NCBI GenBank assembly: GCA_026395955.1
Contig: JAPLXR010000007.1
Location: 65,957-129,956, forward strand
Origin: Candidatus Nomurabacteria bacterium
Lineage (GTDB): Bacteria; Patescibacteriota; Minisyncoccia; Phycocordibacterales; UBA9973
Direction: 5' to 3'
Length of the DNA stretch: 64,000 nt
In this document: piece by piece, positions 3,595-60,052 of the stretch
Numbering within the stretch: position 1 is the stretch's first letter
How the letters are laid out: every line of letters starts with the position of its first letter
Notes under the pieces: model-generated
Told to the model about the DNA's origin: nothing
Databases searched by the model: none
Seen by the model: the letters and a program-made list of their open reading frames with translations, nothing else
Made by a program: the position numbers and the translations under genes

Positions 3595-4281
3595 ATGGAG
3601 AATCCACCTAAAAAACAAACTTTCAAGTTAGAAAAAGTTCAAAAAATAGTTGAAAATAAAGCCACAGAAGATTTGTTGGCTTGTCTTGATGTGCTCGAGC
3701 TTCGAGCTGTTTCTATTGGAGAGGGTGGTAATGCTGAAGTTTTAATTGCTGAAGGAACGCCTTTTGAAAAAGTTTGTTTAAAAAGAATAAAAAATAAGCA
3801 ACAAATACTTTGTAATGAAATTGATGAAGAAAATAAATTTCAAATAAAAGCTCAAGAAGCTGGTGTTCGTACACCTTTGCCTTTAATGTCTTTAAAGACA
3901 GATAAAGGAGATTGTTTCCTTATGGAAAGAATTGAGGGTTATTCAATGAAAGATATAATTGAAAAACCAGAACGTTTACCGAAGAAATTTAAATATAATG
4001 TTTTTTTTAATTCTTTAAAAGAACAAATCGATTTGATGCATAAAACTGGAATCTATCACAGAGATCTGCATTGGGGTAATGTTATGGTAGATAAAAAGGG
4101 TTTGCCTGTAATTATTGATTTTGGAACTGCTATTTATGGTACAGGTAGTGATTCTACTTACGAGGAAAGTGCTACTGTCTACAATGAAAACCTAAAACGT
4201 TACGAGTTAAGATCTGGTATATTTATTGATGATTTAGTTAGTTTTAAAAATCTTAGTGAACAATTTAAAAGTTTTATGTAA
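3595..4281 (+). CDS. minimal eukaryotic-like (Hanks-type) protein kinase domain protein
   Basis: 228 aa. Gly-rich loop IGEGGNAEV, VCLKRIK lysine, catalytic loop HRDLHWGN and the DFG motif (IIDFGTA). Confidence 0.45.
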   Translation: MENPPKKQTFKLEKVQKIVENKATEDLLACLDVLELRAVSIGEGGNAEVLIAEGTPFEKVCLKRIKNKQQILCNEIDEENKFQIKAQEAGVRTPLPLMSLKTDKGDCFLMERIEGYSMKDIIEKPERLPKKFKYNVFFNSLKEQIDLMHKTGIYHRDLHWGNVMVDKKGLPVIIDFGTAIYGTGSDSTYEESATVYNENLKRYELRSGIFIDDLVSFKNLSEQFKSFM

Positions 4282-4757: not shown

Positions 4758-5570
4758 ATGCTTACAATTTTACACAAAGATAAAGACATTTTAGTCATAA
4801 ATAAACCAGCGGGTATTTCTGTGCATGGTGATGGTAGGAGCGATGTGGAAACTTTGGCAGATTTGATATTGGCGGAATATCCAGAAATGAAAGACGTCGG
4901 TGAACCGATGGAAATAGATATCGGTGGTGGTGAGAAAAAAATAATATATCGTCCTGGAATAGTACATAGACTAGATAAAGACACGAGTGGAGTTTTAATC
5001 TTGGCTCGCAATCAAAAAGCTTATGAATATTTAAAAGAGCAATTTCAAAATAGGGAAGTGAAGAAGACTTATAATACTCTCGTTTATGGAAATATGAAAA
5101 ATGATTTTGGAATTATCGATGCCGGTATCGGACGTAGTCCTAGTGACCCTAGAAAAAAAATTGCTTCACGAGGCAAGACTGGCAAGATTCGTGATGCAGT
5201 AACTGAATATAAAGTTTTGAAAAGAATAGAAGTTCCGTTGTCTCAAAATTTTTCCTCCTGCGCCCTTCCCGCAAAATCCGCGGGTGGGACCCTCGGAGAT
5301 AAAAATTTTGCGACAACTCCACAACAATACACTTGGCTCGAAGTTCATCCTAAAACAGGACGCACACACCAGATCCGTGTACATATGAAATTCTTGAATC
5401 ATCCTGTTGTAGTGGACCAATTATATGCCCCAAAAGACGCTACAGCACCTTTCGGTATTTCCCGCCTTGCACTCCACGCTTCGTCAGTAGAATTTAAAAA
5501 TCTCGCAGGGGAGAGTATCACCGTTTCTGCTCCATTACCTCCAGATTTGGCTAAAATACTAGAAAAATAA
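4758..5570 (+). CDS. RluA-family 23S rRNA pseudouridine synthase (RluC/RluD-like)
   Basis: Catalytic HRLDKDTSGVLILAR motif and C-terminal GRTHQIRVHM. A roughly 25-aa GC-rich segment (about 5238-5300) is inserted relative to canonical RluA proteins. Confidence 0.75.
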   Translation: MLTILHKDKDILVINKPAGISVHGDGRSDVETLADLILAEYPEMKDVGEPMEIDIGGGEKKIIYRPGIVHRLDKDTSGVLILARNQKAYEYLKEQFQNREVKKTYNTLVYGNMKNDFGIIDAGIGRSPSDPRKKIASRGKTGKIRDAVTEYKVLKRIEVPLSQNFSSCALPAKSAGGTLGDKNFATTPQQYTWLEVHPKTGRTHQIRVHMKFLNHPVVVDQLYAPKDATAPFGISRLALHASSVEFKNLAGESITVSAPLPPDLAKILEK

Positions 5571-8190: not shown

Positions 8191-8307
8191 ATCGAAATAT
8201 GATAGTATCAATCCATACCTCTCTGTCGATTTAAAAATCGACATCTCCCCTAAATTAGGGGAGAATTGATAGATAATTAAAATAATAATTTTAATTAAAC
8301 GGTATTT

Positions 8308-11941: not shown

Positions 11942-12559
11942 ATGCTATACACTAGAAAAGGAGACAATGGAACAACAAAAACTTTTGGATGCGATCAACG
12001 TATATCAAAAAGTAGTGCGATAGCCGAAGCTCTCGGTTCTATGGATGAAATAAATTCTTTTCTGGGTTTGGTAAAAGTAAAAGCCGCCATTTTAAAGGTG
12101 GCTTTTACTTTGCCTGCCTACGCAGGCAGGCCGGATCAAGAAATAAAACTAGCAGAGACTGTCGACAGAATTCAACAAGACCTTTTTATAATTCAGGCAG
12201 AACTCGCAGGTGCAGATAAAACAATTGTAGAAGAAAAAGTAAAATGGCTCGAAGAAATAATCGACGGCATTGAAAAAATGCTTCCACCGATTAAAACTTT
12301 TTTTGTGTCTGGTGGTACCGAACTCGCATCTCTTTGCGACATCGCTCGCACTATCGCTCGCCGTGCAGAACGCCGAGTAGTCGGCGTCGCAGAAGAGCAG
12401 AAATCTTTTGCAGAGATTTCTGCTCCTGAATCTGCACCCATAAAAACTCTAAGCGCCCAAACCCTCGCATACCTAAACCGTTTAAGTAGTGTCCTCTACG
12501 CCTTCGCCCGCGCCTCAAACCACGTCGCTGGTATTACCGAAGAAGCTCCGAGGTACTAA
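11942..12559 (+). CDS. PduO-type ATP:cob(I)alamin adenosyltransferase
   Basis: N-terminal YTRKGDNGTTKTFGCDQRISKSSAIAEALGSMDEINSFLG and the later DLFIIQAELAG match the PduO/MMAB family. The CDS contains an internal 18-nt perfect palindrome (12113-12130). Confidence 0.8.
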   Translation: MLYTRKGDNGTTKTFGCDQRISKSSAIAEALGSMDEINSFLGLVKVKAAILKVAFTLPAYAGRPDQEIKLAETVDRIQQDLFIIQAELAGADKTIVEEKVKWLEEIIDGIEKMLPPIKTFFVSGGTELASLCDIARTIARRAERRVVGVAEEQKSFAEISAPESAPIKTLSAQTLAYLNRLSSVLYAFARASNHVAGITEEAPRY

Positions 12560-12967: not shown

Positions 12968-13094
12968 TTTTTATAGTTTTTAAAATTCAGTTGTCTTTTC
13001 TTAAAAGTATCATTCTGAACTAAACATGTCAAATGATATAAATTTGCATAAAATGATGTGGGTAGTATACTGGTAATGTGCTTAACAAATTAAT

Positions 13095-13262
13095 AGTTTT
13101 GTAATTGGGGAAGTGAGGTGAGAATCCTCCACAGTGCCGCTACGGTAATCTAAATTTAATTTAGAAAGTCCGAATGCCAATTATGAATTTTGATACCCGA
13201 GCAGGAATTCCATATTTCATTTTTGAAACATGGTACGGTAACTCCTCTCTGTGGGAGTTTTT
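13095..13262 (+). promoter_or_regulatory. cobalamin (AdoCbl) riboswitch with terminator/SD-sequestering expression platform
   Basis: Core GGGGAAGTGAGGTGAGAATCCTCCACAGTGCCGCTACGGTAAT matches the conserved cobalamin riboswitch core (AGGGAAG..GGTGAGAATCC..C.GCC..GCTAC.GT.A). Hairpin actcc-tctctgt-gggagt plus T-run lies immediately before the start codon at 13266. Confidence 0.7.
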
Positions 13263-34070: not shown

Positions 34071-34133
34071 GATCTCACCCCCAACCCCTCTCCTTATAAA
34101 GGAGAGGGGCGCCGGGATGGAATACACAATATA

Positions 34134-35839
34134 ATGAAACAAAAAATAATAAATTTAATAAAAGATGCTTTGAATAAACTCGAAATAGGTGAGGTGAATT
34201 TTGTCGTGGAACATCCAGAAGATTTCAAGAATGGAGACTATTCTACGAACGTAGCGATGGTTTGTGCGAAGCAATTGAAAATGAATCCACGTGAACTTGC
34301 AGAAAAAATTTCTGCAGAAATTATGAAGCACCCCCTCCGGCTTTCAGTCACCTCCCCCTTAGCTAAGGGGGAGGGCTGGGGTGGGGGTGTTGAAAAAATA
34401 GAAGTCGCCGGCGCAGGGTTTATAAATTTCTATATTTCAAAAGAATATTTTCAAAAAGAATTAGCAAATATAATAACTTTAGCTGATAAATACGGATCCT
34501 CAGATTTAAATAAAGGAAAGAAAATTTTAGTTGAACATTCTAGTCCGAATTTATTTAAGCCATTTCACGTCGGGCATATGATGAATAATGCTATCGGTGA
34601 ATCTATTACTCGACTCGCACATTTTTCTGGTGCGGAAGTAAAAGCTATTTCTTTCCCGTCTGATATTTCTCTCGGAGTAGCTAAAGCAATTTTTATAATT
34701 TTAGAAAAACAAATTGATGGTCAAGTTTTTAAACCAGTAGACATCGTTGTATTAGGTGATGCTTATGTAGAAGGAACGAAGAGATACGATGACGATGAAT
34801 CTAAAAAGACTCTCCAGAATTCAGCGCTTTTGTCGCTTGTAAAGAATTCAATATGGAATATTTTAAAAATATTACAAAACGTCTCGGTTCAGAATTTGAT
34901 GGATATATTTACGAGAGTGAGGCTGGTATCATAGGTAAAAAAATGGTTTTAGAAAATACTCCTGCTATTTTTACCGAGAGTGAAGGCGCCGTCGTTTATA
35001 TTCCAGAAGAAACAAAAAAATACATAAATACTGCAGTGTTTATAAATAGCCAAGGCAACCCAACCTATGAAGCTAAAGATTTAGGTTTACTCGATTTGAA
35101 ATTTGAAAAATATAATCCTGACCTTTCTATTTTTATTACAGACCATCAACAGATCTCTCATTTCGCTGTCGTTCTCGATGCCGTAGAAAAAATAAATAAA
35201 AGCTGGGTAGAGAGAAGTATTCACCGAACACATGGACGTATGACATTCAAGGGACAAAAGATGTCTTCACGTCTCGGGGGAGTTCCACTCGTTGCTGATA
35301 TTTTAGAGACAGTCCTTGCTGAAGTTTTTGAACGCACAAAAAATAGAGATACTGTCGATACACGTGAGAATCCAGAAGCTATCGCCGTCGGCGCTCTCAA
35401 GTTCGCTATCCTCCGTGCTCAAGCAGGAAAAAATATCGACTTTGATCCAGAGACTTCACTTTCTTTCGAAGGGGATTCAGGTCCATATTTACAATACACT
35501 GGTGTCCGTGCAAATTCTGTTTTGGAAAAAGCTGGAAAAATTTCTGCAGAAATTTTTCCAGCAACAACTTTCTCAGACACACCAACCACTGATGTAGAAA
35601 AAATACTTGCTCGTTTCCCAGAAGTCGTTGAAAATTCTATCAATAACTGGGCTCCACATTATGTAACGACATATCTATGTGAATTGGCTCAATCATTCAA
35701 TAGCTGGTATGCACATACTCAAATTATCGATGAAGCTAATCCAAATATGAATTACAATTTAGCTATCACTAAATCAGTTGCCCAAGTAATGCAAAACGGC
35801 TTGTACCTCCTCGGTATTACTCTCCCAGAACGTATGTAA
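34134..35839 (+). pseudogene. argS: arginyl-tRNA synthetase, interrupted by an apparent frameshift near 34840-34856 (ORFs 34134..34934 and 34853..35839)
   Basis: ORF1 has the ArgRS N-terminal domain and HIGH region (PNLFKPFHVGH). ORF2 continues in the +2 frame with the ArgRS catalytic and DALR anticodon-binding parts. Alignment with the E. coli ArgRS segment KRYDEDEE...ITYDRLNV places the frame switch in an A-rich tract (gtaaagaattcaatatgg). ORF1 also carries an in-frame insertion of a GC-rich palindromic element (34328-34376). Confidence 0.6.
34328..34376. repeat. GC-rich palindromic mini-element copy 1 (inside argS CDS, in frame)
   Basis: gcaccccctccggctttcagtcacctcccccttagctaagggggagggc. 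Contains the perfect 24-nt palindrome cctcccccttagc/gctaagggggagg. A related copy lies at 46395-46434. Confidence 0.6.
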
Positions 35840-39429: not shown

Positions 39430-39432
39430 ACA

Positions 39433-39714
39433 ATGAAAAAGAATTTTAATATACAGGCGAAGGTGTGGCGATGGCCAGGGGATGGGGGCTGGCATTTTGT
39501 GAATCTCGATCAAAAAGTCTCTAAATAAATTCGAGATGTGTATACTCGTGGTTTTGTAAAAGTATCTGCCATTATCGGACGCACGTCTTGGGATGCGTCA
39601 CTCTTGCCGAGTAAAAGGGACGCCAGCTATCTGCTCTGTGTCAAAAAACTCGTCCGCCAAAAAGAAGGAATTTTTGACGGCGATATGGTTAAAATTAAAT
39701 TTAAGATAAAGTAG
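39433..39714 (+). pseudogene. GC-rich DUF1905-like small protein gene interrupted by a single in-frame TAA (39526-39528)
   Basis: Not in the ORF track. Same-frame translation MKKNFNIQAKVWRWPGDGGWHFVNLDQKVSK*IRDVYTRGFVKVSAIIGRTSWDASLLPSKRDASYLLCVKKLVRQKEGIFDGDMVKIKFKIK. The W.WPG.GGW.FV.L...TSW..SL.P...G.YLLP.K motifs resemble the DUF1905 family. Composition is much more GC-rich than its flanks. Confidence 0.4.
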
Positions 39715-39819
39715 TTTTCCACACTTGCTTGTGAACGATTGTTCACTTATAATATGGTTGTGAGTGAAAGGTTTAAATTGTTAGGAAAATGATTTAAAAT
39801 AAGGTAAAATTTAAAGGAT

Positions 39820-40983
39820 ATGAAATTAAAAGATACAGTTGATACAATTAAAATTTTTCCAAGTCATCCATTTCAAGACAAACTTTTTGAAGTTCTTGAA
39901 AGTGAAAGATTTAATTATGATATTGTTGCAGAAAAAATAAAAGAAACTTATTTATATACTCCACAACTAAAAGAAAATCGTTTTCAATTACAAAATAGAA
40001 GATATATAGGTTCAAAACATAAACTTATAGAATGGATCTTTTCTGTTATTAATAAAGAATGTAGAGGGACTTCTTTTGCTGATATTTTTGCTGGTACTGG
40101 AATTGTTTCTGCTATTGCAGCTAAGCATTTTGAAAAAATAACTATTAATGATTTTTTATACTCAAACTACGTAACTTATCAAGCCTTTTTTAGTAATAAT
40201 GATTGGGATTCTAATAAGATAGAAGGACTGATTAATTATTACAATAATATTGATGTTTTAAATTTGAAAGAAAATTACTTTTCTAAAAATTTTGGTGGAA
40301 AGTATTTTAGTCAAAAATCAGCAAAAATAATAGGATTTATAAGAGATAATATTGAAGAAATTAAGAAAACTCTTACAGATAGAGAATATTATATTTTACT
40401 TTCATCCTTACTTTATTCAATAGATAAGATTGCTAATACAGTTGGGCACTATGATGCATACTTTAAAAAAGATTCGTTGGAAGATAGGTTTATTTTAAAA
40501 TTAATAGACCCAATTAAGGTTGCTGATATTTCTATCTTTAAAGAAGATGCTAATATTCTAGTAAAGAAAATTAAAACAGATATTGCTTATATAGATCCAC
40601 CATATAATTCTAGACAATATAGTAGATTTTATCATGTTTTAGAAACTTTGATTAAATGGGATAAACCACTTTTGCATGGTGTTGCATTAAAACCTGAACC
40701 AGAAAATATGAGTGATTACTGTCGTGTGAGTGCAAGAGAAAAATTTGCAGAATTAATAAAAGACATAGATGCAAAGTATTTAGTTGTTTCCTATAATAAT
40801 ACTTATGATTCAAAAAGTCATTCTTCTCAAAATAAGATTAATTTACAAGAAATAAAAGATATTTTAAACCAAAAAGGTAAGACTAAAGTTTTTGAAAAAG
40901 ATTATAGACATTTTAATGCTGGTAATACAGATTTTAATAATCACAAAGAATATCTTTTTGTTACTGAAGTAAATCATGTCTAA
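39820..40983 (+). CDS. N6-adenine DNA methyltransferase, D12 (Dam) class
   Basis: YIGSKHKL (Dam YxGxK motif), FADIFAGTG (FxGxG SAM-binding) and DPPY catalytic motif. Confidence 0.7.
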   Translation: MKLKDTVDTIKIFPSHPFQDKLFEVLESERFNYDIVAEKIKETYLYTPQLKENRFQLQNRRYIGSKHKLIEWIFSVINKECRGTSFADIFAGTGIVSAIAAKHFEKITINDFLYSNYVTYQAFFSNNDWDSNKIEGLINYYNNIDVLNLKENYFSKNFGGKYFSQKSAKIIGFIRDNIEEIKKTLTDREYYILLSSLLYSIDKIANTVGHYDAYFKKDSLEDRFILKLIDPIKVADISIFKEDANILVKKIKTDIAYIDPPYNSRQYSRFYHVLETLIKWDKPLLHGVALKPEPENMSDYCRVSAREKFAELIKDIDAKYLVVSYNNTYDSKSHSSQNKINLQEIKDILNQKGKTKVFEKDYRHFNAGNTDFNNHKEYLFVTEVNHV

Positions 40984-46357: not shown

Positions 46358-46390
46358 CAATCCTAGTGAAGAACTAGGATTGTTTTTTTT
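46358..46390 (+). terminator. rho-independent terminator
   Basis: Hairpin caatcctagtgaagaactaggattg followed by TTTTTTTT. Confidence 0.75.
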
Positions 46391-46394
46391 GTAA

Positions 46395-46434
46395 GCACCC
46401 CCTCTGAATCTCCCACCTTAGCAAGGGGGAGAAC
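46395..46434. repeat. GC-rich palindromic mini-element copy 2 (intergenic)
   Basis: gcaccccctctgaatctcccaccttagcaagggggagaac aligns with 34328-34376 (shared gcaccccctc...tcccc.ccttagc.aagggggag). Confidence 0.6.
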
Positions 46435-46511
46435 TTTCTTCCTTTTGACAAATCTCTTTATTTTTGCTATAGTATTTACAGAATAAATATGTAAATTAAA
46501 ATAAATATAAA

Positions 46512-47606: not shown

Positions 47607-50600
47607 ATGGAAGAAAAAAATAACACAAATAAATCAGAAGTAGCACTTCGCGAAGAAATAGTTTTAGAATTTTGGAAAGAAAACAAAATTTTTGAACAAA
47701 CAATAAATAAAAAAGAAAATCCAAAAGGCGATTATATATTTTTTGATGGTCCACCGACTGCAAATGGTATGCCTGGACTTCATCATATGGAAGCTCAATC
47801 TTTCAAAGATGTTATGCCTCGCTATAAAACGATGCAAGGTTTTCGTGTTCCTAGAAAAGCCGGATGGGACACACATGGTCTTCCTGTAGAATTACAAGTT
47901 GAAAAAGCACTCGGCTTAAAATCAAAAAAAGAAATTGAACAATACGGAGTAGAAGCTTTTAATCAAAAGTGTAAAGAAAGTGTTTGGAAATACAGAGATG
48001 AATGGATAAAACTACGTCAACGTATGGGTTATTGGGTTGATATGGATAATGCTTATGTAACATATAAAAATGATTATATCGAAGCGTTGTGGTCAGTTGT
48101 ATCAAAAGCAAATGATCGCGGACATTTATATAAAGATTTTAAAGTCCTTCCATGGTGTACACGTTGCGGAACCGCACTTTCAAGTCATGAACTTTCTCAG
48201 CCTGGTGCATATAAAGATGTGAAAGATCTTTCCGTGTATGTGAAATTTAAAATAAAAGGTTTTGAAAATGGATACTTTTTAGCTTGGACGACGACACCTT
48301 GGACTTTGCCTGGGAACGTCGGACTCGCTGTCGGTAATGATTTTATATACGTTGAGGCAAAAGTCGGTAATGATATTTTAGTTGTTGCAAAAGAAAGATT
48401 AGAAATAATTACTGAACCATATGAAATAATAGCAGAACATAAAGGTAGTGAAATGATCGGTATGGAATACGAACCGCTCTTTCCATATTTGAAAAATAAT
48501 ATCGAAAGTGAAGTGCCGACACAAATAGAAAATCTAAAAAATGCATTTAAAATTTACGGTGCAGATTTCGTGACAACGATAGATGGTACAGGGATAGTGC
48601 ATACAGCGGTAATGTATGGAGCGGACGACTTTGACCTCGGTACAAAAGTTAATTTACCTAAATATCATACAGTAAACGAAGAGGGAAGATTTGTCGCAGG
48701 AACCGATTTCCTCGAAGGACGATATGTGAAAGAAGTAGATGAGAATGGTAAGCCCACACTCGCTGTAGATATAATAGATAATCTAACTAGTCGTGGACTT
48801 TTGTTTAAAAAAGAAAATCACATGCACAGTTATCCGCATTGTTGGCGTTGTGATACACCTCTCATTTATTATGCGAGAACTTCTTGGTATTTCCGTATGA
48901 GTGCACTTCGTGATCAACTCCTAGCAGGAAATGAAAATATAAATTGGGAACCAAAACATATAAAAGAAGGACGTTTTGGCGAATGGCTCGATGGTATCAA
49001 GGACTGGGCTATTTCTCGTGATCGTTATTGGGGAACGCCGTTACCTATCTGGCAGAAAGCTGATGGAAGTTATAAAACTATTTCATCTCTTTCAGATTTG
49101 AAAAAATATACAAAGAAATCTGGAAATAAATATTTCATAATGCGTCACGGCGAGACAGAAGCAAATAAAAAAGGAATCATTTGTTCACTGCCTTCTGGTA
49201 AATGGCATCTAGATGAAGATGGAAAGAGACAAGTAAATGAAACAGCTGAAAAATATAAAGATCAAAAAATTGATTTGATTTTCACTTCAGATTTTACTCG
49301 TACACAAGAAACCGCAGAAATAATGGCTGACAAACTCGGATTGAAATCTGAACAAGTTATCATAGATCAGAGGCTTCGTGAAATAGGTGCTTATTCTTTT
49401 GATGGAAAAGGTTGGGACGAATATCATGCATTTCATACAAAGACAGTTGAGAATTTCAACAGACGTGTGAATGATGATGAATCATATGAAGATGTAAAAA
49501 TTCGCATCACTTCTTTCCTTTATGAAATAGAAGAAAAATACCAAGGTAAAAATATTTTATTTGTAACTCATGGTGGACCTGCATGGTTGCTCTTTGCTGG
49601 GGCAGAAGGAAAGTCTCCGAAAGAAACACTAGATATGATAATAGATAAAAAAGATTATCATTATTTCCAAAATGCAGAAATAAAAGAATTAAACTTTACT
49701 CCATTACCACATAATAAAAATTATGAATTAGATTTTCATAAACCATATATCGATGAAGTTGCATTAGAAGATAATGGCGAAACGCTTACTCGTACATCAG
49801 AGGTGATGGATGTGTGGTTCGATTCTGGTGCGATGCCTTATGCCCAAGACCATATACTAGGAGAAGAAGTGGACTTTACTCCAGCAAGGGCTGACTTTAT
49901 TTCTGAAGGGCTCGACCAGACTCGTGGTTGGTTTTATACTTTGCACGCAGTTTCAAATTTACTTTCAGATAAACCAAGTAATGCGTACAACAATGTCATC
50001 TGCCTCGGACTTATCCTCGATGCAAATGGTCAAAAAATGTCAAAGTCTCGTGGTAACGTCGTTGATCCATGGATGATGTTTGAAAAATATGGAGCAGACA
50101 CTATTCGTCTCTGGATGTATTCTGTGAATCAGCCAGGGGAGTCAAAGAATTTCGATGAGCGAACAGTGATGGAACTTCATAGGCAAGTTTTCGGACTTCT
50201 ATATAACGTAGTTTCTTTTTATGAATTGTATAGAGATAAAAATTTAGAAAATGAAACACCAGAAGAGAGTCAAAATGTACTAGATATTTGGATTCTTGCA
50301 AGACTAAATGAATTAACAAAAAATGTTACAGAAAATTTGAATGGCTATAAAACACTCGAACCAGTGCGTGCTATTCGTGATTTCATCGATGATTTATCTA
50401 CATGGTATCTACGTCGTTCACGTGAGAGAATCAAAGAAGGATCTTTCATTTCAAAGATTACTTTGTATTATGTTTTAAAAAACCTAACGAAGCTTATGGC
50501 GCCATTTGCACCATTTGCTAGTGAAGATATTTATCGAAAATTAAGAAATGAAAATGAGCCAGAATCTGTGCACCTTTGTGATTGGCCTAAATATACTGAA

Positions 50601-51089
50601 ATAAATAATAAAGTTATAGAAGAAATGCAAAGTGTTAGAAATAATGTTTCTCTAGGCTTGAAAGATCGTCAGAAAGCAGGTCTCCCTGTGCGTCAGCCAT
50701 TGTCTGAGTTAAAAATAAAAGGAGCAAAACTTGGCGAGGAATACATTGAACTTATTAAAGATGAAGTAAATATAAAATCAGTAATTTTCGATGAAAGTAT
50801 TGAAATGGAAACAATCTTGAATACAGAAATAACTCCAGAATTAAAAGAAGAAGGGAACTATCGTGAACTCGTTCGTGCTATTCAAGACATGCGTAAAAAA
50901 GCAGGACTTACTCCTTCAGATATTATTTCTCTTTCTATAGAAACTGATGAAATAGGAAAATCTCTAGTTCAAAAATTCGAAGCTGATTTCAAGAAAACTA
51001 TTCTAATAAATGAAGTAAAATTTGAAAATAATTCAGGTGAGGAAATAAAAGTAGATGCTTTAAACTTTAAAGTTAGCATCATTAAGTAA
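47607..51089 (+). CDS. ileS: isoleucyl-tRNA synthetase with an internal ~200-aa histidine-phosphatase (PGAM-like) domain insertion
   Basis: HIGH-region PPTANGMPGLHHM, editing domain, KMSKS (KMSKSRGN). Between PLPIWQ and HKPYIDEV lies an inserted segment (aa ~501-710; nt ~49107-49736) with an RHGETEAN motif, TSDFTRTQETAE and a second His in FVTHGGP. These are the histidine phosphatase superfamily signatures. Confidence 0.9.
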   Translation: MEEKNNTNKSEVALREEIVLEFWKENKIFEQTINKKENPKGDYIFFDGPPTANGMPGLHHMEAQSFKDVMPRYKTMQGFRVPRKAGWDTHGLPVELQVEKALGLKSKKEIEQYGVEAFNQKCKESVWKYRDEWIKLRQRMGYWVDMDNAYVTYKNDYIEALWSVVSKANDRGHLYKDFKVLPWCTRCGTALSSHELSQPGAYKDVKDLSVYVKFKIKGFENGYFLAWTTTPWTLPGNVGLAVGNDFIYVEAKVGNDILVVAKERLEIITEPYEIIAEHKGSEMIGMEYEPLFPYLKNNIESEVPTQIENLKNAFKIYGADFVTTIDGTGIVHTAVMYGADDFDLGTKVNLPKYHTVNEEGRFVAGTDFLEGRYVKEVDENGKPTLAVDIIDNLTSRGLLFKKENHMHSYPHCWRCDTPLIYYARTSWYFRMSALRDQLLAGNENINWEPKHIKEGRFGEWLDGIKDWAISRDRYWGTPLPIWQKADGSYKTISSLSDLKKYTKKSGNKYFIMRHGETEANKKGIICSLPSGKWHLDEDGKRQVNETAEKYKDQKIDLIFTSDFTRTQETAEIMADKLGLKSEQVIIDQRLREIGAYSFDGKGWDEYHAFHTKTVENFNRRVNDDESYEDVKIRITSFLYEIEEKYQGKNILFVTHGGPAWLLFAGAEGKSPKETLDMIIDKKDYHYFQNAEIKELNFTPLPHNKNYELDFHKPYIDEVALEDNGETLTRTSEVMDVWFDSGAMPYAQDHILGEEVDFTPARADFISEGLDQTRGWFYTLHAVSNLLSDKPSNAYNNVICLGLILDANGQKMSKSRGNVVDPWMMFEKYGADTIRLWMYSVNQPGESKNFDERTVMELHRQVFGLLYNVVSFYELYRDKNLENETPEESQNVLDIWILARLNELTKNVTENLNGYKTLEPVRAIRDFIDDLSTWYLRRSRERIKEGSFISKITLYYVLKNLTKLMAPFAPFASEDIYRKLRNENEPESVHLCDWPKYTEINNKVIEEMQSVRNNVSLGLKDRQKAGLPVRQPLSELKIKGAKLGEEYIELIKDEVNIKSVIFDESIEMETILNTEITPELKEEGNYRELVRAIQDMRKKAGLTPSDIISLSIETDEIGKSLVQKFEADFKKTILINEVKFENNSGEEIKVDALNFKVSIIK

Positions 51090-59783: not shown

Positions 59784-59790
59784 AATTTGC

Positions 59791-59878
59791 GGAGCCGGAC
59801 GGATTCGAACCGTCGAGGGGTTTTGAAGCCCCTGCCTCTTTAGCAAAGAGGTACGTTAGACCACTCTGACACGGCTCC
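59791..59878 (-). tRNA. tRNA-Ser (anticodon GCT), type II
   Basis: Reverse complement GGAGCCG...anticodon stem-loop CCTCT-TTGCTAA-AGAGG...long variable arm...GACGG-TTCGAATC-CGTC-CGGCTCC-G. Confidence 0.75.
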
Positions 59879-59962: not shown

Positions 59963-60052
59963 GGAGGCGTGGATGAGTGGTTTAAATCAACGGTTTACTA
60001 AACCGTCGTCCTTTAATCGGGACCGTGAGTTCGAATCTCACCGCCTCCGCCA
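59963..60052 (+). tRNA. type II tRNA (Ser-like architecture) with anticodon loop TTACTAA (anticodon ACT), encoded CCA
   Basis: Acceptor GGAGGCG/CGCCTCC, 3-bp D-stem GAT/ATC with GAGTGGTTTAA loop, anticodon stem ACGGT/ACCGT, long variable arm, T-arm GTGAG-TTCGAAT-CTCAC, discriminator G + CCA. The loop differs from the Ser-GCT loop TTGCTAA by G34->A. Confidence 0.5.

What the first reader, a model, noticed from the sequence alone, without database searches (positions are those of the whole stretch)
34328..34376. Family of short GC-rich palindromic elements, one copy inserted in-frame in argS (RPE-like)
A ~40-49-nt element recurs: gcaccccctc-(spacer)-tc.cc.ccttagc.aagggggag. One copy lies inside the argS ORF (34328-34376), where it encodes an extra LRLSVTSPLAKGEGWGGG peptide without breaking the frame. 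Another is intergenic at 46395-46434. Related CTCCCC-TAAATTA-GGGGAG and CCCCTCTCC-TTATAAA-GGAGAGGGG hairpins occur at 8245-8263 and 34085-34109. In this AT-rich genome these GC-rich palindromes stand out. In-frame insertion of palindromic mini-elements into protein genes is best known from Rickettsia palindromic elements.
Basis: seen in the sequence. Interest (0 to 1): 0.6.

Follow-up and report, generated by a model that had tools for sequence, protein, structure and literature searches.

The report
GC-rich triplex-motif repeat inside argS
A 61-base GC-rich nested palindrome sits in frame inside the arginyl-tRNA synthetase gene of a tiny AT-rich Nomurabacteria (CPR) genome; it belongs to a widespread bacterial repeat class so far reported in the papers I read only between genes, and in these bacteria it is also found in frame in about ten other Pfam-identified housekeeping genes.

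Summary
A GC-rich nested palindrome lies in frame in argS. Its true extent is 34329-34389, not 34328-34376. A second copy is intergenic at 46396-46432 and a sister element lies at 34072-34109. All three fit an intrastrand triplex-motif layout: pyrimidine arm, loop, purine arm, loop, mirror-repeat G arm. Shuffled windows gave 0 to 0.03 such motifs. Against 119 ArgRS homologues the argS copy is about 14 extra residues, in a loop AlphaFold2 models at pLDDT below 50.

One exact pattern found 52 loci in Patescibacteria, cyanobacteria, Cellvibrio, Binatia, Poribacteria and others. In Patescibacteria-type loci 11 of 22 copies are in frame in Pfam-identified genes. The hosts are ArgRS, IleRS, LeuRS, LepA, TGT, RecA, RecG, RNase HI, AtpG and MnmA. 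An Fmt-like gene, judged from its peptide only, adds one more. All use the only stop-free frame (..SPLAKGE..). Two sites are filled in one close relative and empty in another, without target-site duplication.

The closest known kind is the E. coli BoxC/PIT/TMECO repeat (Holder 2015), described there as always intergenic. The outcome resembles Rickettsia palindromic elements, but this is not a member of that family. I found no report of this in CPR. How the elements spread is unknown. The window's argS is also broken by an unrelated 43-nt deletion.

The parts
34329..34389 (+). Copy A, the full class-I element inside argS (61 nt). It is read in frame as HPLRLSVTSPLAKGEGWGGG.
   Evidence: The same 61-mer sits at the same site in the relative L034. 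A 96.9% identical copy lies in mnmA of another Nomurabacteria MAG (L052).
34329..34338 (+). 5' arm CACCCCCTCC. Its complement GGAGGGGGTG is a mirror repeat of the purine arm, so it is a third-strand candidate on the bottom strand.
   Evidence: 9 of 10 allowed triads. Also found by the triplex-motif finder on the minus strand.
34339..34350 (+). Spacer GGCTTTCAGTCA, a degenerate mini-hairpin.
   Evidence: Other copies have GGCTTTCAGCC, GGCTTTGCC, GCCTTCGGC, GCCTTTGGC, GCTTTCAGC or GTCCTCAGCCAAACTGAGTCC at this position. Pairing is kept through changes on both sides. This was read by eye and not scored formally.
34351..34374 (+). Core perfect hairpin: Y arm CCTCCCCCTT, loop AGCT, R arm AAGGGGGAGG.
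34375..34389 (+). Loop GCTGG plus 3' arm GGTGGGGGTG. The arm is a mirror repeat of the R arm with A replaced by T. With the R arm, the stretch GGGGGAGGGCTGGGGTGGGGG also fits a G-quadruplex pattern.
   Evidence: 9 of 10 allowed G.G-C / T.A-T triads. The G-quadruplex pattern is read directly from the sequence.
46396..46432 (+). Copy B, an intergenic 5'-armed class-I element: CACCCCCTC-TGAA-TCTCCCACCTT-agc-AAGGGGGAGA. It lies between a terminator-like hairpin (46360-46392) and a promoter-like site (46445-46473).
   Evidence: It qualifies as a triplex motif on the minus strand with relaxed loop sizes. The terminator-like hairpin is my reading of the sequence; the scan did not flag it.
34072..34109 (-). 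Class-II element in the dut-argS spacer: CCCCTCTCCT-ttata-AGGAGAGGGG-ttg-GGGGTGAGAT (minus strand). It is close to the TMECO type.
   Evidence: L015 holds a near-identical copy with the same loop.
8244..8264 (.). Hairpin TCTCCCCT-aaatt-AGGGGAGA. A possible degenerate relative, with no clear arms.
   Evidence: Not found by the triplex-motif finder.
34134..35839 (+). argS, the host gene. In the window it is split into two ORFs (34134-34934 and 34853-35839) by a 43-nt deletion at 34802/34803.
   Evidence: The relative L034 has an intact 583-aa ArgRS that carries the same element.
34306..34323 (.). AT-rich palindrome AAATTTCTGCAGAAATT, 6 nt upstream of copy A.
   Evidence: it occurs at only two places in the window, against 0.23 matches expected by chance.
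35538..35555 (.). Second copy of the AT-rich palindrome, in the DALR part of argS. At this site the relative L034 carries a triplex-motif-like element instead.

Best explanation
The argS segment is one copy of a dispersed, non-autonomous GC-rich repeat of the intrastrand triplex-motif kind (BoxC/PIT/TMECO-like). It has a pyrimidine arm and a purine arm forming a hairpin, flanked by one or two G-rich arms (or their C-rich complements). These arms are mirror repeats of the purine arm.

Shown:
- The element is foreign to ArgRS.
- The same 45-68-nt sequence occurs in unrelated genes and spacers of many genomes.
- Close relatives differ in having it or not at given sites.
- It occupies a loop between a helix and a strand of the ArgRS N-terminal domain.
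- Only one reading frame per strand through the TTAGCTAA core is free of stops, and every intragenic copy uses that frame.

Inferred:
- New copies arise by a structure-promoted repair or recombination event that overwrites a short patch of DNA with sequence copied from another element. I infer this rather than cut-and-paste transposition because filled and empty alleles differ by replacement of about 30-60 nt, with no target-site duplication.
- Selection then keeps only events that land in tolerant surface loops, in the stop-free frame, with a net length divisible by three.
- The insert is translated as a disordered Gly/Pro-rich loop that is neutral or nearly so for the enzyme.
- In gene-dense Patescibacteria genomes there is little spacer to land in, so a large share of surviving copies are intragenic.
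For: Insertion. 119 homologues mostly have a 7-residue loop where the window has 21. The segment is GC-rich in a 34% GC genome. AlphaFold2 gives pLDDT 93-98 on both sides and below 50 for residues 70-83, which are coil.

Family. The pattern occurs twice in the window and 0 times in shuffles. It hit 52 loci in the genome collection, against roughly 4 by my back-of-envelope estimate for uniform base composition. Positions the pattern did not specify are also conserved.

Triplex layout. A finder using ITxF-like rules finds copy A, copy B and the 34072-34109 element. It found 0.03 and 0 per shuffled window. In 15 distinct two-armed copies both arms give 8-10 of 10 allowed triads. The published description matches this layout.

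In-frame copies. Pfam identifies the hosts as RecG, LeuRS, RNase HI (twice), AtpG, TGT, LepA, RecA, MnmA and IleRS. An Fmt-like ORF, recognised from its peptide only, adds one more. Only one frame per strand is stop-free.

Polymorphism. IleRS in L054 has the element where the window has 28 unrelated AT-rich nt, a net gain of 30 nt, within a stretch 88.6% identical overall. ArgRS-DALR in L034 has an element where the window has an AT-rich palindrome, a net gain of 3 nt.

Intact host gene. L034 ArgRS is 583 aa, uninterrupted, and carries the element.

Spacer copies. The Patescibacteria copies outside long ORFs sit in short spacers at gene ends. None of them interrupts a gene with stops.
Against: - No mechanism of spread is shown. 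The patch-replacement idea rests on two allele pairs, and in both the 'empty' allele could itself be derived.
- Triplex formation is not shown. Plain Watson-Crick pairing of the two outer arms fits almost as well (6-9 of 10). Holder et al. saw no stable triplex in double-stranded DNA or in vivo.
- Different hairpins occupy the same ArgRS loop in other lineages (L001, L002, P0013). RNase HI carries elements at one site in two lineages. This could mean targeting, common descent or selection, rather than random landing plus filtering.
- The strict window-type core is rare. Only 9 of the JGI metagenome records searched hold it.
- Translation of the insert is inferred from intact frames, not observed.
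Confidence: 0.8

Rival explanations
1. It is a true miniature transposon (MITE, REP/REPIN or RPE type). A dedicated enzyme encoded elsewhere in the genome moves it, for example an IS200/IS605-like or RAYT HUH transposase that recognises the hairpin plus the CACCCC/GGGGTG tag.
For: The layout is a hairpin plus a conserved asymmetric tag, occurring in both orientations, as in GTAG/CGTC-tagged REPs (abstract of PMC3733652, listed). HUH elements also insert without target-site duplication. 33-mers identical between Nostoc and Poribacteria loci (L005, L056) suggest horizontal movement. Presence/absence polymorphisms exist.
Against: No transposase was looked for or seen, and whole genomes were not available. 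The tag is neither GTAG nor CGTC. Both filled/empty pairs look like segment replacement rather than clean insertion. Holder et al. found no association of TMECO with transposons, phages or plasmids.
Confidence: 0.12
2. The hairpin at this position of argS is selected for a function of its own. It could be an mRNA or DNA structure that pauses translation or replication or sets mRNA stability. Or the extra loop could do something in ArgRS. On this view it is maintained rather than merely tolerated.
For: The same loop carries a GC-rich hairpin of different sequence in several lineages (window, L001, L002; peptides in P0009, P0013, P0036, P0038, P0045, P0074). The structure is very stable. The element and 700 nt around it are identical between the window and L034.
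Against: About 110 of 119 homologues have no insert. The same element occurs in unrelated genes and in spacers. The loop is modelled as disordered. The identity with L034 extends equally to the flanks, so it says nothing about selection on the element.
Confidence: 0.06
3. It is an assembly or binning artefact, a chimeric GC-rich fragment in an AT-rich MAG.
For: The window comes from a metagenome-assembled genome. Its argS also carries a frameshifting 43-nt deletion, which could be an assembly error.
Against: The same insertion at the same site is in an independently assembled relative (L034). In-frame copies occur in many independent assemblies from different studies.
Confidence: 0.01

Closest known systems
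BoxC / PIT (potential intrastrand triplex) / TMECO triplex-motif repeats of E. coli and other bacteria (Holder et al. 2015, PMC4666352, which cites Hoyne & Maher 2000 and 2002 and the 1990s BoxC reports)
   Same: Three-block layout: pyrimidine stem, 3-6 nt loop, complementary purine stem, short loop, second G-rich stem mirroring the first. Both are G/C-rich, multi-copy, dispersed and found in both orientations, sometimes as 'palindromic' two-armed versions. Both are abundant in cyanobacteria and proteobacteria, are linked to local sequence variability between strains, and have no known transposase. Strict TMECO copies lie in the same Cellvibrio and Binatia loci that hold the window-type element.
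   Different: The stems differ: CCTCCCCCTT/AAGGGGGAGG/GGTGGGGGTG here against CCCTCNCCC/GGGNGAGGG/GGGNGAGGG, so the strict TMECO pattern does not match any window copy. Loop 2 can be long and can hold a mini-hairpin. TMECO is reported as always intergenic in E. coli. Here half of the Patescibacteria copies are translated parts of housekeeping genes.
Rickettsia palindromic elements (RPE; Ogata et al. 2000, as summarised in PMC10969869)
   Same: Palindromic repeats in a small AT-rich genome, inserted in frame into many unrelated housekeeping genes, encoding a conserved peptide and thought compatible with the protein fold.
   Different: RPEs are about 150 bp, in ten Rickettsia families. These elements are 45-68 nt, GC-rich, have a triplex-motif layout and are shared across phyla. 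No sequence relationship was seen or expected.
REP/REPIN elements with RAYT transposases (PMC3116915 and PMC3733652; titles and abstracts only)
   Same: Short (20-40 bp) palindromes with a conserved tag at one end, found singly or in inverted pairs, high in copy number.
   Different: The REP tags are GTAG or CGTC. REPs are extragenic and species-specific. No RAYT was identified here.
GC clusters of yeast mitochondrial DNA (own knowledge; PMC8811140 was listed but not read)
   Same: Short GC-rich palindromic elements standing out in a very AT-rich genome.
   Different: A different domain of life and different sequences. This is a recalled resemblance only and was not tested.

Membership tests
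Intrastrand triplex-motif repeats (ITxF class II; BoxC/PIT/TMECO kind) | Three consecutive blocks: pyrimidine stem, loop, Watson-Crick complementary purine stem, loop, third stem giving G.G-C, A.A-T or T.A-T triads. Stems are 6-15 nt with at most 1 mismatch, and loops are 1-6 nt. | tested here: met
   Copy A (plus strand; stems 10-11, loops 4 and 3-5) and the 34072-34109 element (minus strand; stems 10, loops 5 and 3) pass with loops of 6 nt or less. Copy B and the minus strand of copy A pass only with longer loops. Shuffled windows gave 0.03 and 0.
Intrastrand triplex-motif repeats (BoxC/PIT/TMECO kind) | Strict TMECO consensus CCCTCNCCC N3-6 GGGNGAGGG N3 GGGNGAGGG. | tested here: not met
   No window copy matches. 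Strict matches occur only in the Cellvibrio and Binatia loci. Patescibacteria class-II copies match a one-off relaxed version, and the window's class-II copy misses even that by one base.
Intrastrand triplex-motif repeats (BoxC/PIT/TMECO kind) | Many dispersed, highly similar copies in a genome and across genomes. | tested here: met
   52 loci across several phyla. One Nomurabacteria MAG, one Minisyncoccia MAG and one Binatia MAG each hold 4 strict-pattern copies. The window holds 3 triplex-motif elements in 64 kb. No whole-genome count was possible for the window's own genome.
Intrastrand triplex-motif repeats (BoxC/PIT/TMECO kind) | Intergenic location (always, in E. coli). | tested here: not met
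   Copy A and 10 other Patescibacteria copies lie in frame in Pfam-identified genes.
Intrastrand triplex-motif repeats (BoxC/PIT/TMECO kind) | The single strand forms a triplex in vitro (CD, NMR). | not testable with these tools
   Only triad counting was possible. Watson-Crick pairing of the outer arms fits nearly as well.
Rickettsia palindromic elements (RPE) | Membership of one of the ten RPE sequence families, about 100-150 bp, in Rickettsia. | tested here: not met
   The elements are 45-68 nt, the host is Patescibacteria, and the layout is different. No alignment against RPE consensus sequences was run.
Rickettsia palindromic elements (RPE) | In-frame insertion into unrelated housekeeping ORFs, encoding a conserved peptide. 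| tested here: met
   ..[HY]P.P.SPLAKGE.. appears in 11 copies across 10 protein families.
Rickettsia palindromic elements (RPE) | Insert lies where it is compatible with the fold (surface loop). | tested here: met
   In the AlphaFold2 model the insert is coil with pLDDT below 50, between helix 52-64 and strand 86-92 of a domain otherwise at pLDDT 93-98. This is a prediction only.
REP/REPIN-RAYT | GTAG or CGTC tag at one end of the palindrome. | tested here: not met
   The ends are CACCCC... and ...GGGGTG. GTAG occurs only inside the 3' arm variant GGTAGGGGTG.
REP/REPIN-RAYT | A cognate RAYT (Y1/HUH) gene in the genome. | not tested
   Only 64 kb of the genome and 8-kb pieces of others were available. 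No systematic domain scan was run.
MITE | Terminal inverted repeats with a target-site duplication. | tested here: not met
   No duplication at the two filled/empty site pairs or in the flanks of the 54 copies.

The most novel reading that the evidence does not exclude
In Patescibacteria, triplex-motif repeats act as a recurrent, structure-directed editor of protein loops. They overwrite short palindromic or loop-coding patches of essential genes by a repair-type copying mechanism with no transposase. They return to the same loops repeatedly, as in the ArgRS N-domain loop, the RNase HI hairpin loop and the AT-rich palindrome sites in argS. On this reading they are a main source of the lineage-specific insertions seen in CPR proteins.
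Probability: 0.2. Interest if true: 0.8.

Novelty: new variant of a known kind. Interest (0 to 1): 0.62.

Why it matters
G/C-rich triplex-motif repeats (BoxC/PIT/TMECO) have been known since the 1990s, but their function and means of spread are unknown. In E. coli they are described as always intergenic. Here the same kind of element is found translated inside core housekeeping genes: several tRNA synthetases, LepA, RecA, RecG, RNase HI, the ATP synthase gamma subunit, TGT and MnmA. The hosts are among the smallest and most streamlined bacterial genomes known.

[quoted passage not shown] It also offers a concrete source for lineage-specific loops in CPR proteins. The filled and empty alleles between close relatives can be used to work out how these repeats move.

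There is a practical point too. Such inserts produce odd low-complexity peptides (..SPLAKGEGWGGG..) and GC spikes, which can mislead gene calling, alignment and horizontal-transfer screens in MAGs.

Tried and rejected
- Looking up the window's own ArgRS ORF (and P0001) in the contig index found nothing on record. P0013 also failed. I therefore could not extend beyond the window or fetch DNA for most insert-bearing homologues.
- Rfam at a permissive E-value found only chance microRNA-like hits around the elements.
- Literature searches by exact element sequence or peptide found nothing for the class-I core. Searches combining CPR names with repeat terms found only CRISPR mentions. The class-II-like string led to Holder 2015 and Kaplan 2016.
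- A protein-database census with the element-encoded peptide failed. The alignment query was too short, and a 45-aa concatenated query shared too few indexed words with any candidate.
- The metagenome scan with the 24-nt core gave only 9 records. The exact core is rare, and the scan added only one new host gene, an Fmt-like ORF.
- Intrinsic terminator: rejected for copy A, which is inside a gene, and for copy B, which has no T-run and follows a separate terminator-like hairpin.
- Simple Watson-Crick nested palindrome: it could not be separated cleanly from the triplex reading.
- A wider repeat unit including the AT-rich palindrome upstream of copy A: the similarity between the two argS sites is significant, but it rests mostly on the roughly 20-nt palindrome. 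Left unexplained.
- RAYT or other transposase search: not attempted, because only 64 kb of the genome was in hand.
Full report
**Context.** The window is 34% GC. The 266-aa ORF at 34134-34934 is identical to an NCBI protein named arginine--tRNA ligase from a Candidatus Nomurabacteria MAG, on a contig of 159,190 bp. Pfam puts Arg_tRNA_synt_N and the start of tRNA-synt_1d on this ORF. The rest of tRNA-synt_1d and the DALR_1 domain fall on the overlapping ORF 34853-35839. So argS is real but split. The upstream genes tmk and dut are in the same order as in related loci.

**The observation.** The blocks GCACCCCCTC and TTAGC(N)AAGGGGGAG co-occur at 34328 and 46395 only. The joint pattern matches twice in the window and never in 100 shuffles.

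The argS copy is longer than reported. After the perfect hairpin CCTCCCCCTT-agct-AAGGGGGAGG (34351-34374) come GCTGG and GGTGGGGGTG, ending at 34389. The 5' arm is CACCCCCTCC (34329-34338). The 61-mer folds at -43.7 kcal/mol as RNA, z = -4.2. A hairpin scan of the whole window finds only four pyrimidine-arm/purine-arm GC-rich hairpins, at 8244, 34085, 34351 and 46409.

**It is an insertion.** I aligned the ORF with 119 homologues. Most have about seven residues between the helix ending ..AEKI...K and the strand (I/V)EK(I/V)EVAGAGFINF. The window has 21. An AlphaFold2 model built on 75 sequences has pLDDT 93-98 on both sides. The insert is coil, with pLDDT below 50 for residues 70-83.

The same alignment shows that a minority of other Parcubacteria ArgRS have different GC-rich-looking inserts at this same loop. 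Examples are VLPLAKGEAGGGL, SPSPRVGEGWSE, LLTLSKGEAGRWS and LPKQGFGNLGKGGF. At the DNA level one of these is CCCTCTCCTAgggTAGGAGAGGG-TTGGAGTGAGG (L001). Another is TTACCGAAGCaagGCTTCGGTAA (L002).

**It is a family, and a broad one.** A scan of one genome per GTDB species with CACCCCCTC-N4-30-TAGC-N0-1-AAGGGGGAG returned 52 loci. My back-of-envelope estimate of chance hits at uniform base composition is about 4. The hits come from Patescibacteria (Nomurabacteria, Minisyncoccia, Paceibacterota), Nostoc, Cyanothece, Nodosilinea, Cellvibrio, Binatia, Poribacteria, Nitrospirota, Fibrobacterota, Bacteroidota and others.

Positions the pattern did not fix are conserved too. Nostoc and Poribacteria loci share identical 33-mers. 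Many copies carry a 3' arm (C/T)TGGGT(G/A)GGGGTG. The TTAGCTAA core occurred only in loci titled Patescibacteria-lineage, plus two titled 'uncultured bacterium' (L012, L021). A metagenome scan with the 24-nt core gave nine more records.

The loci also hold sister hairpins. One is the class-II type CCCTCTCCT-N5-AGGAGAGGG with an arm CACCTCACCCCAA or, in the other orientation, GGGGTGAGGTG. The window's 34085-34109 hairpin, with arm TCACCCCCAA, is one of these.

**What kind of element.** A literature search with a class-II-like string found Holder et al. 2015 (PMC4666352) and Kaplan et al. 2016 (PMC5100583). Holder et al. describe the E. coli BoxC or PIT element, which they rename TMECO. Its pattern is CCCTCNCCC N3-6 GGGNGAGGG N3 GGGNGAGGG. 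It is a hairpin followed by a G-rich third strand that mirrors the purine arm and forms a purine-motif intrastrand triplex in vitro.

They count 3610 copies in 262 proteobacterial genomes and many G/C-rich motifs in cyanobacteria. In E. coli they find it always intergenic and not associated with transposons, phages or plasmids. They link it to local variability between strains.

The window elements have this layout. In copy A the 3' arm GGTGGGGGTG is the mirror image of AAGGGGGAGG with A replaced by T, giving 9 of 10 allowed triads. The complement of the 5' arm does the same on the other strand.

A finder I wrote with ITxF-like rules picks out copy A and the 34072-34109 element. With longer loops allowed it also picks out copy B and the other strand of copy A. 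Shuffled windows gave 0.03 and 0 hits.

The strict TMECO consensus is not met by any window copy. It is met by elements in the Cellvibrio and Binatia loci that also hold the window-type element. I therefore file this as a sequence variant of the triplex-motif kind, not as TMECO itself. Watson-Crick pairing between the two outer arms fits almost as well as the triad rule, so the triplex itself remains an inference. The G-rich half also fits a G-quadruplex pattern, the reading Kaplan et al. favour for the E. coli motif.

**In-frame copies in other genes.** Twenty-two of the 52 loci are titled Patescibacteria-lineage or (two of them) 'uncultured bacterium'. Eleven of these have the element inside a long open frame that Pfam identifies:
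- RecG (L012)
- LeuRS (L013)
- RNase HI (L015, L030)
- ATP synthase gamma (L025)
- TGT (L026)
- LepA (L032)
- ArgRS (L034)
- RecA (L042)
- MnmA (L052)
- IleRS (L054)

Two metagenome contigs add an ORF whose peptide looks like methionyl-tRNA formyltransferase (not checked with Pfam). All are read as ..[HY]P.P.SPLAKGE.. whichever way round the element lies. Translation of the element in six frames shows why: through the TTAGCTAA core only one frame per strand has no stop.

The other Patescibacteria copies lie in short spacers at gene ends, and none interrupts a gene with stops. That argues against splicing or bypass. In the other phyla the copies lie mostly in short open frames, which suggests spacers. 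I did not check those with annotation.

**Evidence of turnover.** L034 (JAPLXQ010000010.1, Nomurabacteria LacPavin_0818_WC45_MAG_33_35) is a close relative, 83-94% identical over 8 kb and identical for about 700 nt around copy A. It has the same argS insertion in an intact 583-aa gene.

In the DALR part of the same gene, L034 has a 5'-armed element GCACCCCTCCTCAATCCTCCCCTTGGCAAATGGGAGGAAGG. The window instead has unrelated AT-rich sequence, a net difference of 3 nt.

L054, from another Nomurabacteria MAG, is 88.6% identical to the window's ileS. It has a 58-nt element where the window has 28 unrelated nt, a net difference of 30 nt (ileS named).

Neither pair shows a target-site duplication. 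Both look like replacement of a patch rather than clean insertion. This is the basis for my inference of a repair or recombination type of copying. It is thin, and a transposase-based route is not excluded.

**An unexplained detail.** The AT-rich palindrome AAATTTCTGCAGAAATT occurs at only two places in the window, against 0.23 matches expected. One is 6 nt upstream of copy A. The other is exactly at the DALR site where L034 has its extra element. It may be a preferred target, part of a larger unit, or a trace of conversion between the two sites.

**The frameshift.** The window's argS is split because 43 nt present in L034 are missing at 34802/34803. This has nothing to do with the element. 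It may be a real pseudogene or an assembly error.

**Verdict.** The family is better named: it is a triplex-motif (BoxC/PIT/TMECO-like) repeat that behaves in Patescibacteria the way RPEs behave in Rickettsia. I found no report of this in the searchable literature. How the elements spread is not known.

Noticed in passing
window 34802/34803 (argS): The window's argS lacks 43 nt that the close relative L034 has (ATCCATGCTCGTGTAAAAGAAATTGCTGATAATCTATACTCTG). This splits the gene into two overlapping ORFs. It is either a pseudogene or an assembly error.
   Followed up: partly
window 47607-51089 (ileS), residues about 503-680: The 1160-aa IleRS matches the ileS model in two stretches. Between them lies a histidine-phosphatase domain (alpha-ribazole phosphatase / phosphoglycerate mutase family), embedded in the synthetase.
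   Followed up: no
window 34306-34323 and 35538-35555: The AT-rich palindrome AAATTTCTGCAGAAATT occurs only at these two places, both in argS. One is next to copy A. The other is where the relative L034 carries a second triplex-motif-like element.
   Followed up: partly
L001 206-1924; L002 1049-2778; L004 3607-4878: argS is also interrupted or truncated in other Parcubacteria contigs. L001 has an in-frame TAA at about 1043. L002 is split into ORFs of 225 and 340 aa. L004 has a 423-aa ArgRS with no DALR domain, overlapped by a gene on the other strand.
   Followed up: no
window 5253-5299 (rluA-family gene 4758-5570) and 12112-12135 (PduO-type adenosyltransferase 11942-12559): Two further GC-rich in-frame islands with hairpin potential: SSCALPAKSAGGTLGD, and PAYAGRPD from GCCTGCCTacgcAGGCAGGC. 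The rluA island falls in the gap between the two stretches that match the rluA-family model, and the PduO ORF spans about 31 more residues than its model, so both may be other in-frame palindromic inserts of different sequence.
   Followed up: partly
L012 4319-6712 (recG); L015 1116-1676 (rnhA); L052 3991-4989 (mnmA); L025 and L026: Several host genes carry more than one GC-rich insert. RecG has ..FDKKLRVAPSASSRGEGE.. and ..SHSEGEGRRGE.. as well as the class-I element. RNase HI in L015 has a second one (YPYPTSPYVGGGEKG). TGT and AtpG have a tandem partner (..RQGEDRGGV..) just upstream.
   Followed up: no
L003 about 5185-5215 and L004 about 3790-3820 (argS loop): Some ArgRS genes have ..LRQAQGE.. 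at the same loop, encoded by CCTTCGACA(A/G)GCTCAGGGT. By my recollection this is one arm of another GC-rich repeat often seen translated as FDKLRV/LRQAQG in metagenome ORFs. That identification was not tested.
   Followed up: no
window 59963-60052: ARAGORN calls a tRNA-Ser with anticodon ACT, divergent from a tRNA-Ser(GCT) at 59789-59878. Rfam also scores it as a tRNA (57 bits). By my recollection an A at position 34 is unusual for tRNA-Ser.
   Followed up: no
window 13090-13187: An AdoCbl-II (cobalamin) riboswitch lies upstream of ORFs starting at 13251, close to the PduO-type adenosyltransferase gene.
   Followed up: no
window 39430-39820: A 390-nt spacer with a GC-rich stretch (GGTGTGGCGATGGCCAGGGGATGGGGGCTGGCA) and a hairpin at 39595-39623. 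No Rfam match at gathering threshold. Possibly an unannotated RNA.
   Followed up: no
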